Below are positions 14,742-14,822 of a stretch of 64,000 nt of DNA, in pieces. The DNA comes from a virus. Lineage: Duplodnaviria; Heunggongvirae; Uroviricota; Caudoviricetes. The position numbers and the translations under genes are program-made. Numbering within the stretch: the stretch's first letter is position 1; each line of letters begins with the position of its first letter. Where the stretch lies: the IMG/VR virus record IMGVR_UViG_2529292913_000008; one strand, written 5' to 3'. The notes below the pieces were generated by a model. The model did not search any database. It was not told the origin of the DNA and saw only the letters and a program-made list of their open reading frames with translations.

Positions 14742-14771
14742 AGTGCACCTTTTTGATTGCTCTAATAAAAA

Positions 14772-14798
14772 ACGTGATGAGTGTACATCACGTTTTAA
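14772..14798. terminator. bidirectional rho-independent terminator
   Basis: ACGTGATG-AGTGTAC-CATCACGT flanked by an A-run and a T-run; between two inverted operator-like boxes. Confidence 0.5.
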
Positions 14799-14822
14799 AA
14801 ATATGGAATTATTAGAGCAATA

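What the first reader, a model, noticed from the sequence alone, without database searches (positions are those of the whole stretch)
14756..14821. Inverted pair of operator-like boxes around a bidirectional terminator
ATTGCTCTAATAA on the plus strand (14756-14768) and its reverse complement (14809-14821) flank a hairpin with an A-run and a T-run. One compact element could terminate the ppp-side operon, repress the next promoter, and loop DNA between two repressor sites.
Basis: partly seen in the sequence, partly recalled or inferred. Interest (0 to 1): 0.4.

Follow-up and report, generated by a model that had tools for sequence, protein, structure and literature searches.

The report
Known P1 repressor sites flanking terminator
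The two inverted boxes are the already catalogued C1-repressor binding sites Op86a/Op86b of a P1-like phage-plasmid. The hairpin between them looks like an ordinary one-directional transcription stop at the end of the ppp–pmgQ genes, so this is a neatly packed but essentially known control junction.

Summary
Exact 13-nt inverted boxes lie at 14756-14768 and 14809-14821, around an 11-bp hairpin (14769-14779/14786-14796).

The window is a P1-like phage-plasmid, about 99% identical to phage P1. In the P1 and P7 GenBank records these boxes are annotated as C1-repressor operators OpmgRb/OpmgRa (former Op86b/a; Op(sht) in P7). They control the predicted promoter PpmgR of pmgR-pmgS. All genes here are on the minus strand.

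What I add concerns the hairpin:
- **Selection as minus-strand RNA.** Two fully compensated pair changes separate the P1 lineage from the Salmonella and Cronobacter lineages. Eight kinds of one-sided transitions give G·U on the minus strand but A·C on the plus strand. Minus-strand stability is kept in all lineages (-11 to -15 kcal/mol), while the plus-strand version decays to -4.4.
- **One direction only.** The hairpin plus UUUUUUAUU is a canonical intrinsic terminator on the minus strand only. "Bidirectional" is not supported.
- **Promoter in the gap.** Published P1vir RNA-seq shows a 4-8-fold step up from pmgQ to pmgR/pmgS at 10 min. This supports a promoter in the gap and a transcription-unit boundary.

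DNA looping between the two sites is untested. Novelty is low: the operators are known, and the terminator reading is a small refinement.

The parts
14823..15524 (-). pmgQ, last gene of the upstream pmgN-pmgO-pmgP-ppp-pmgQ unit. Its stop codon is at 14823-14825, 1 nt from the operator.
   Evidence: ORF list; P1 annotation transferred at 99% identity. Pfam gives no hit for PmgQ, and Metallophos for the neighbouring ppp.
14805..14821 (-). C1 operator OpmgRa (former Op86a), ATTGCTCTAATAATTCC. It overlaps the -35 of PpmgR.
   Evidence: P1 record protein_bind feature; P7 record. Core 13/13 and 14/17 to the consensus. Exact in all fetched loci that carry this upstream region, including ~70%-identical lineages.
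14792..14820 (-). Predicted sigma-70 promoter PpmgR: -35 TTGCTC (14815-14820), 17-nt spacer, -10 TAAAAC (14792-14797). The -10 lies inside the 5' arm of the hairpin. The inferred start is around 14783-14787, in the hairpin loop.
   Evidence: P1 record, predicted only. It is a weak consensus match (7/12) and the generic scan does not report it. RNA-seq shows a step up from pmgQ to pmgR/pmgS at 10 min, which supports a promoter in this gap.
14769..14796 (-). Hairpin of an intrinsic terminator read on the minus strand: 5' arm 14796-14786, loop 14785-14780, 3' arm 14779-14769. The core is the 7-bp G/C-closed stem 14792-14786 / 14779-14773.
   Evidence: for the fold and scan.
14764..14772 (-). U-tract of the terminator (UUUUUUAUU on the minus strand). 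The same bases form the 3' part of operator Op86b.
   Evidence: Sequence; custom scan tail TTTTTTAT. Invariant in all lineages apart from +1 T in two loci.
14756..14772 (+). C1 operator OpmgRb (former Op86b), ATTGCTCTAATAAAAAA. It is inverted relative to Op86a and lies about +13 to +29 downstream of the inferred PpmgR start.
   Evidence: P1 and P7 records. The 12-nt core is conserved in 87 of 88 loci, with one substitution in L040.
14746..14751 (-). Shine-Dalgarno sequence AAGGTG of pmgR. It is preceded by a 5-6 nt spacer that is hypervariable among P1-like elements.
   Evidence: Sequence; variants listed.
14523..14741 (-). pmgR (72 aa), an essential head-completion / head-tail joining gene and the first gene of the controlled unit.
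   Evidence: ORF; annotation; essentiality from PMC9024508.
13214..13236 (-). Strong minus-strand terminator just after pmgS. It marks the downstream end of the pmgR-pmgS unit (context).

Best explanation
This is the pmgQ/pmgR intergenic control junction of a P1-family phage-plasmid, packed into 81 bp and read on the minus strand.

(1) An intrinsic terminator ends transcripts coming from the upstream C1-controlled pmgN-ppp-pmgQ unit. It is an 11-bp hairpin followed by UUUUUUAUU.

(2) A weak sigma-70 promoter, PpmgR, restarts transcription for pmgR-pmgS. Its -35 (TTGCTC) is the core of operator Op86a. Its -10 (TAAAAC) is part of the hairpin's 5' arm. Transcripts would therefore start in the hairpin loop, lack the 5' arm, and not be stopped by the terminator.

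(3) In the lysogen, C1 repressor binds the two asymmetric 17-bp operators. Op86a covers the -35. The inverted Op86b lies at about +13 to +29, and its A-run encodes the terminator's U-tract. Together they shut PpmgR by occlusion and by a downstream block.

Status of each step:
- Shown here: the sequence anatomy, orthology to the annotated P1 and P7 operators, conservation, covariation and strand asymmetry of the hairpin, and the published expression step.
- Inferred: actual termination, the start site in the loop, C1 occupancy of both sites, and any cooperativity or looping.
For: Identity:
- The window is 99.1% identical to P1 AF234172.
- Both boxes coincide with protein_bind 'phage repressor C1' features OpmgRa and OpmgRb, and with predicted PpmgR. 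The same holds in P7.
- The consensus ATTGCTCTAATAAATTT and the count of 22 operators are stated in PMC8546580.
- The motif is strongly enriched in the window.

Conservation:
- Both 12-nt cores are perfectly conserved in Cronobacter phage JK004 and in Salmonella plasmids that are only 70-74% identical around them.
- They are conserved in 87 of 88 loci.
- Box-to-box spacing is 64 nt in all three lineages.
- JK004 encodes a C1 homologue at 76% identity.

Terminator:
- Fold z-scores are -5.5 to -8.4.
- It is one of only 4 stringent hairpin + T-run sites in 64 kb, against 0.07 expected, and scores on the minus strand only.
- Two fully compensated pair changes are present, G-C to A-T and A-T to G-C.
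- All 10 one-sided changed cells are G·U on the minus strand. On the plus strand there are 12 unpaired cells.
- Minus-strand dG is -11.2 to -14.7 kcal/mol in the transition variants and in all lineages. Plus-strand dG is -4.4 in E. albertii and -5.8 in JK004.

Promoter and boundary, from P1vir RNA-seq (PMC8201110 Table S1):
- pmgQ 7.05/6.23, against pmgR 9.02/9.00 and pmgS 9.99/9.09 at 10 min.
- The kinetics differ on the two sides of the gap.
- CRISPRi roadblocks in ppp and pmgQ are not lethal although pmgR is essential.
Against: - No experiment on termination, start site or C1 binding at this site was accessible. The key paper (Lobocka et al. 2004, the P1 genome paper) is not held.
- PpmgR is only a predicted promoter and a weak one: 7/12 to consensus, and the -10 lacks the final T. 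In JK004 the -10 reads TGAAGC. The generic promoter scan does not report it.
- Three singleton variants (L043, L049, L081) weaken the minus-strand stem to -7 to -9.5 kcal/mol.
- The U-tract cannot be separated from operator conservation, because the same bases serve both.
- The 30-min RNA-seq drop from pmgQ to pmgR (~0.8 log units) is ambiguous, since gene-length normalisation is unknown. In the CRISPRi screen the pmgR knockdown itself also failed to score.
- c1 is not inside the window, which starts within lpa.
Confidence: 0.75

Rival explanations
1. The hairpin is a bidirectional terminator, and the two C1 sites cooperate by looping the ~50 bp between them.
For: The hairpin has an A-run on one side and a T-run on the other, and it folds equally well on both strands in the P1-type sequence, at -13.4 kcal/mol each. 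Box-to-box spacing is invariant across diverged lineages. C1-mediated looping is reported elsewhere in P1; this rests on my memory of Heinzel et al. 1994 and was not checked here.
Against: - No plus-strand gene or promoter converges on the site.
- The plus-strand tail is UUUUAAAA and fails the stringent scan.
- Natural variation preserves pairing on the minus strand only.
- The centre-to-centre distance of 49 bp is about 4.7 helical turns, which is out of phase, and such a loop would be very short.
Confidence: 0.1
2. There is no separate promoter. The two C1-bound operators act only as roadblocks, and the hairpin acts as an attenuator, on read-through transcription from the ppp operon. That read-through would be the real source of pmgR-pmgS mRNA.
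For: The annotated -10 is weak and is degraded in JK004. The promoter scan finds nothing here.
Against: At 10 min after infection, pmgR and pmgS are 4-8-fold higher than pmgQ in two hosts. Read-through through a terminator cannot produce that. Using the operator's TTGCTC as the -35 is the same layout as at OpmgT/P2pmgT in the P1 record.
Confidence: 0.07
3. The inner palindrome ACGTGATG-N6-CATCACGT is a DNA binding site for a dimeric protein, for example a late-gene activator site, and not an RNA structure.
For: It is a perfect inverted repeat. The symmetric (compensated) changes seen in the diverged lineages would also keep a DNA palindrome intact.
Against: - Eight kinds of one-sided transitions break the DNA symmetry but give G·U in the minus-strand RNA. 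This is expected for RNA pairing, not for a protein site.
- The P1 late-promoter -22 boxes (AAGTTACTT, ATGTGACTT) do not match.
- The loop sequence is not conserved between lineages.
Confidence: 0.03
4. The hairpin is functionally neutral. It would be a by-product of A/T-rich operator-flanking sequence, or an RNA end-stabiliser with no termination role.
For: Three singleton variants tolerate a weakened stem. No direct termination data exist.
Against: Compensated changes occur and minus-strand stability is maintained across about 30% sequence divergence. The structure is a canonical stem with a U-tract, placed exactly at an operon end.
Confidence: 0.05

Closest known systems
Phage P1 operators OpmgRa/OpmgRb (former Op86a/Op86b) with predicted promoter PpmgR; phage P7 Op(sht[a])/Op(sht[b])
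   Same: Same position between pmgQ (hdmD) and pmgR (shtA). The sequence is identical from box to box, with the same orientation and spacing. The element in the window is the orthologous copy.
   Different: Only a few bases between Op86b and the pmgR ribosome-binding site differ (TTTTT here, TTGTA in P1). The records annotate no terminator here. They annotate none anywhere in the 16 kb I inspected, so that absence is uninformative.
Bivalent C1 operators of P1 (e.g. Oc1ab; the pair at window 29058-29085)
   Same: Two asymmetric C1 17-mers in inverted orientation, acting on one promoter.
   Different: In bivalent operators the two 17-mers overlap by several bp and form one near-palindrome. Here they are 32 bp apart and enclose the -10 region, the start site and a terminator hairpin. 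The record calls each of them 'monovalent'.
Oppp (former Op83) / PpmgN arrangement in P1
   Same: A C1 operator placed just downstream of the -10 and inverted relative to transcription, like Op86b.
   Different: It is a single operator, with no -35 operator partner and no hairpin or terminator.
Canonical bacterial intrinsic (Rho-independent) terminators
   Same: A stem containing G/C pairs (7-bp G/C-closed core, 11 bp with the A-U extension), a 6-nt loop, dG about -13 kcal/mol, immediately followed by UUUUUUAUU, at the 3' end of an operon.
   Different: Its 5' arm doubles as a promoter -10, and its U-tract doubles as part of a repressor operator. Activity has not been measured.
Two-operator repression loops (gal OE/OI, lac O1/O3; C1 looping at the P1 c1 region)
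   Same: Two repressor sites bracket a promoter.
   Different: The separation is only 49 bp centre to centre, about 4.7 turns. C1 is described as binding asymmetric sites. There is no evidence here for cooperativity or looping. The comparison rests on general knowledge and was not tested.

Membership tests
P1-type C1-repressor operators | Match to the asymmetric 17-bp consensus ATTGCTCTAATAAATTT | tested here: met
   Both sites match 14/17, with the 13-nt core exact. The consensus is quoted in PMC8546580. The motif is enriched 10 against 0.42 expected.
P1-type C1-repressor operators | Positional orthology to a catalogued operator of P1 or P7 | tested here: met
   The sites coincide with OpmgRa/OpmgRb (Op86a/b) in AF234172 and with Op(sht[a])/(sht[b]) in AF503408.
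P1-type C1-repressor operators | Overlaps or adjoins a promoter of a phage early gene | tested here: met
   Op86a covers the predicted -35, and Op86b lies just downstream of the inferred start. pmgR and pmgS are among the most highly expressed P1 genes at 10 min, with a step up from pmgQ.
P1-type C1-repressor operators | Cognate C1 repressor encoded by the same element | tested here: inconclusive
   c1 is not in the window, which begins inside lpa; tblastn gives no hit. All close relatives encode C1, and so does the diverged JK004.
P1-type C1-repressor operators | Physical binding by C1 (footprint or gel shift) | not testable with these tools
   This needs an experiment.
Intrinsic (Rho-independent) terminator | Stable stem-loop containing G/C pairs | tested here: met
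   dG is -13.4 kcal/mol, z = -5.5. The stem is 11 bp with a 6-nt loop.
Intrinsic (Rho-independent) terminator | U-rich tract immediately 3' of the stem on the transcribed strand | tested here: met
   The minus strand reads UUUUUUAUU.
Intrinsic (Rho-independent) terminator | Placed at the 3' end of a transcription unit | tested here: met
   The hairpin begins 26 nt after the pmgQ stop codon. Expression kinetics differ on the two sides.
Intrinsic (Rho-independent) terminator | Base pairing maintained in evolution in the RNA of the transcribed strand | tested here: met
   There are 2 compensated pairs, and 98.1% of cells are paired on the minus strand against 92.2% on the plus strand. dG is maintained on the minus strand only.
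Intrinsic (Rho-independent) terminator | Measured transcript release | not testable with these tools
   No Term-seq or in vitro data were found.
Bidirectional terminator | Functional U-tract and maintained hairpin on both strands, usually between convergent units | tested here: not met
   The plus-strand tail is UUUUAAAA and fails the scan. Plus-strand pairing decays in the lineages. All flanking genes are co-oriented on the minus strand.
Repressor-mediated DNA loop | Two sites in helical phase with cooperative binding | not tested
   Only the geometry is available: 49 bp centre to centre (~4.7 turns), with spacing conserved. Cooperativity needs an experiment.

The most novel reading that the evidence does not exclude
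The overlap may be functional rather than mere packing, giving a repressor-assisted terminator that its own promoter escapes. C1 bound at Op86b sits exactly on the DNA that encodes the terminator's U-tract. In a lysogen it could act as a roadblock that pauses RNA polymerase at the hairpin and makes termination of upstream read-through nearly complete. After C1 inactivation the terminator would become leakier and PpmgR would fire from inside the hairpin, so its transcripts would lack the 5' arm. Termination efficiency and promoter activity would then be switched together by one repressor.
Probability: 0.12. Interest if true: 0.4.

Novelty: already known. Interest (0 to 1): 0.12.

Why it matters
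This matters little beyond annotation. The element confirms that the window is a P1-family phage-plasmid with the standard C1 regulon. It also shows that the Op86a/b pair is conserved even in Cronobacter and Salmonella relatives that are only about 70% identical.

The small addition is comparative evidence that the hairpin between the operators is a minus-strand RNA terminator. [quoted passage not shown] That could be useful for people engineering P1, for example when placing insertions or reading CRISPRi polarity. It also offers a compact natural terminator-promoter-operator cassette.

Tried and rejected
- **P1 genome paper.** Lobocka et al. 2004, the primary source for Op86a/b and for the P1 terminator maps, is not held under its PMC id or DOI. 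Text searches for 'Op86' found nothing, and no P1 start-site or terminator mapping paper was found.
- **Generic scan.** The promoter/terminator scan reported neither the hairpin nor PpmgR. For the hairpin this is technical: the maximal 11-bp stem absorbs part of the T-run. I replaced it with a custom scan.
- **Rfam.** No family matches within 14300-15300.
- **Late (Lpa-dependent) promoter idea.** The -22 boxes of LPhot and LPpac do not resemble the hairpin, and the loop is not conserved. Rejected.
- **A general 'terminator next to C1 operator' rule.** Three of the 4 strong terminators lie within 60 bp of a box. However, the one at 12610-12630(+) follows hsdR, and the one at 48709-48728(+) faces the opposite direction between ant and kilA. 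Rejected as a general rule.
- **Searches for diverged relatives.** The genome-contig scan gave only 2 loci, and the viral-contig scan gave 80 loci all with identical PmgR. These were useful only for population variation. The diverged relatives came from blastn and tblastn.
- **c1 gene.** I looked for it in the window and at extrapolated coordinates of plasmid pEC258-2. It is absent from the window, and my extrapolated coordinates landed on cre/ref.

Full report
**Observation**

The repeat finder gives two nested inverted repeats:
- I1: arms 14756-14768 / 14809-14821, 13 nt, 100% complementary.
- I2: arms 14769-14779 / 14786-14796, 11 nt, 100% complementary, with a 6-nt loop.

The box ATTGCTCTAATAA occurs 13 times in the window at <=2 mismatches, against 2.4 expected. 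The 17-mer ATTGCTCTAATAAATTT occurs 10 times at <=3 mismatches, against 0.42 expected. The hairpin folds with z-scores of -5.5 to -8.4 relative to shuffles.

**What the window is**

- The region 13500-16500 is 99.0-99.6% identical to phage P1, P7, RCS47, SJ46 and other P1-like phages.
- The segment 14480-15100 is 100% identical to E. coli plasmid pEC258-2, and 687 plasmids in PLSDB carry it. The window is therefore a P1-like phage-plasmid.
- All genes around the site are on the minus strand: pmgN-pmgO-pmgP-ppp-pmgQ upstream, with pmgQ at 14823-15524, and pmgR (14523-14741) and pmgS downstream. Pfam confirms ppp as a metallophosphatase.

**What the boxes are**

The hand-annotated P1 record AF234172 marks exactly these positions as binding sites of 'phage repressor C1':
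- OpmgRb, former Op86b, at window 14756-14772 on the plus strand.
- OpmgRa, former Op86a, at window 14805-14821 on the minus strand, noted as 'controls expression of pmgR and pmgS'.
- A predicted sigma-70 promoter PpmgR, with -35 at 14815-14820 and -10 at 14792-14797 on the minus strand.

The P7 record has the same two sites, named Op(sht[a]) and Op(sht[b]). PMC8546580 states that P1 has 22 C1 operators with the asymmetric 17-bp consensus ATTGCTCTAATAAATTT. The boxes are therefore already catalogued.

I could not reach the primary literature. I therefore cannot say whether C1 binding at Op86 was shown experimentally or only predicted.

The c1 gene itself lies just outside the window, which starts inside lpa.

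**Conservation of the boxes**

- In Cronobacter phage JK004 (70.5% identical over this stretch), in three Salmonella plasmids (~74% identical to JK004) and in an E. albertii plasmid (94.5%), both 12-nt cores TTGCTCTAATAA are unchanged. The box-to-box length stays at 64 nt.
- Among 88 fetched loci that include the upstream region, 87 have both cores exact. One (L040) has ATTGCTCTGATAA in Op86b.
- JK004 encodes a C1 homologue at 76% identity.

**The hairpin**

A custom scan required a perfect stem of at least 7 bp closed by G/C, at least 3 G-C pairs, a loop of 3-8 nt, and at least 6 T in the next 8 nt. It finds only four sites in the whole window on both strands, against 0.07 in shuffles. One of them is 14792-14773 on the minus strand, with tail TTTTTTAT. 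The plus-strand version, with tail TTTTAAAA, does not qualify.

Comparative data are the strongest evidence:
- The Salmonella lineage has AACATGGTG/CACCATGTT, again a perfect stem. It differs from P1 by two fully compensated pair changes, G-C to A-T and A-T to G-C.
- On 14 distinct variants, the stem is 98.1% paired as minus-strand RNA. All 10 one-sided changed cells are G·U.
- The same stem is 92.2% paired as plus-strand RNA, with 12 unpaired cells.
- Counting kinds of substitution, eight transitions (including the one in L040) keep pairing only on the minus strand. One (L081) keeps it only on the plus strand. Two transversions break both.
- ViennaRNA gives minus-strand hairpins of -13.4 (P1), -12.8 (E. 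albertii), -14.0 (JK004) and -14.7 kcal/mol (Salmonella). The corresponding plus-strand values are -13.4, -4.4, -5.8 and -14.0/-9.7.

The hairpin is therefore under selection as an RNA structure in the sense transcript. A protein-binding DNA palindrome would not show this G·U asymmetry. No Rfam family matches. The P1 late-promoter -22 boxes are unlike it.

**Anatomy on the minus strand**

- The pmgQ stop codon is at 14825-14823.
- Op86a spans 14821-14805, with the -35 TTGCTC inside it.
- A 17-nt spacer follows, then the -10 TAAAAC at 14797-14792.
- The -10 lies within the hairpin's 5' arm (14796-14786).
- The loop is 14785-14780 and the 3' arm is 14779-14769.
- The U-tract UUUUUUAUU (14772-14764) is the 3' part of Op86b (14772-14756).
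- The variable spacer comes next, then the Shine-Dalgarno AAGGTG (14751-14746) and the pmgR ATG (14741).

Transcription from PpmgR would begin about 7 nt after the -10, in the loop. Those transcripts would lack the 5' arm and escape the terminator, whereas transcripts arriving from pmgQ would contain the whole hairpin. This step is an inference from geometry.

**Independent expression evidence**

P1vir RNA-seq (PMC8201110, Table S1) gives log fold-changes at 10 min in the wild-type and dksA hosts:

| Gene | WT | dksA |
|---|---|---|
| ppp | 6.95 | 6.09 |
| pmgQ | 7.05 | 6.23 |
| pmgR | 9.02 | 9.00 |
| pmgS | 9.99 | 9.09 |

- This 4-8-fold step up requires a promoter in the 81-bp gap. It places pmgR-pmgS among the strongly expressed early genes.
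- From 10 to 30 min the upstream genes rise by about 4.5 log units, and pmgR-pmgS by about 1.7. The two sides are therefore different transcription units.
- At 30 min pmgR is about 0.8 below pmgQ. This is compatible with termination but ambiguous, because length normalisation is unknown.
- pmgR is essential (PMC9024508). CRISPRi roadblocks in ppp and pmgQ were not lethal (PMC10695390). That agrees with an own promoter, but it is weak evidence because the pmgR knockdown itself also failed to score.

**Weak points**

- PpmgR is a poor consensus match (7/12), is not reported by the generic scan, and reads TGAAGC at the -10 in JK004.
- The U-tract cannot be separated from operator conservation.
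- Three singleton variants weaken the stem.
- Nothing here measures termination, start sites or C1 binding.
- Looping between sites 49 bp apart (~4.7 turns) is neither supported nor excluded. The fixed spacing is explained equally well by the overlapping constraints.

**Verdict**

The finding is real, but it is the known Op86a/Op86b-PpmgR control region of P1-family phages. It is wrong on 'bidirectional' and untested on looping.

The only increment is comparative evidence that the intervening hairpin is a minus-strand intrinsic terminator that shares bases with the -10 and with Op86b. Novelty: already known. Interest: low.

Noticed in passing
window 9239-12415 (+), terminator 12610-12630 (+): A 1058-aa type I restriction R subunit (HsdR, EcoR124-like; Pfam EcoR124_C, T1R_D3-like, SWI2_SNF2, HSDR_N) sits where P1 has pmgT-pmgV. 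It is followed by a strong plus-strand terminator. The P1 record itself notes that the adjacent stretch is 96-98% identical to sequence downstream of the EcoDXXI/R124 hsd loci. The window has about 6.9 kb more than P1 between lpa and pmgR.
   Followed up: partly
window 13259-14521 (-): pmgS is broken in this copy. Relative to P1 it has a +1 insertion at gene nt 134 and a -1 deletion at nt 628, which gives stop codons from codon 48 on. 77 of 82 other P1-like loci have the intact 420-aa ORF. This is either a pseudogene or a sequencing error. pmgS is reported as non-essential.
   Followed up: partly
window 14750-14755 (between Op86b and the pmgR Shine-Dalgarno): This 5-6 nt spacer is hypervariable among otherwise nearly identical P1-like loci. 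At least 8 haplotypes occur: CTACA, CTATA, ATACA, TTACA, CCATA, CAAAA, CCAAA, CTACAG. By contrast, the 64-nt box-to-box segment is identical in 67 of 88 loci. The cause is unknown; it could be translation tuning or a mutational hotspot.
   Followed up: no
window 48709-48728 (+), near box 48647-48663 (-): A strong plus-strand terminator (CCTGCCAGTTTGCTGGCAGG + TTTTTTCT) lies between ant1/2 and kilA and points against those genes, 46 bp from a C1 operator. It may end the antisense RNA described for the P1 lytic replicon region. That attribution is from memory and was not checked.
   Followed up: no
window 13214-13236 (-): A strong minus-strand terminator (GCTGGTGGAGTGCTCCCACCAGC + ATTTTTTT) lies directly after pmgS. 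The pmgR-pmgS unit is thus bracketed by two sense-strand terminators.
   Followed up: partly
window 1-180 and beyond the left end: The window starts inside lpa. The box at 164-180 (-) corresponds to Olpa (former Op94). The repressor gene c1 is not in the window.
   Followed up: yes
window 29058-29085: Two overlapping inverted 17-mers (ATTACACTAATAAATTT on the plus strand, ATTGCTCTAATAAATTT on the minus strand) form a bivalent C1 operator. It is presumably the ban-operon operator of P1, but I did not map it to the record.
   Followed up: no
L040 1420-1490 (IMGVR_UViG_2744054872_000006): This is the only fetched locus with a mutated Op86b core (ATTGCTCTGATAA). It also carries a C-to-T change in the stem, which is G·U on the sense strand. 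It is a natural operator variant that could be used in binding tests.
   Followed up: no
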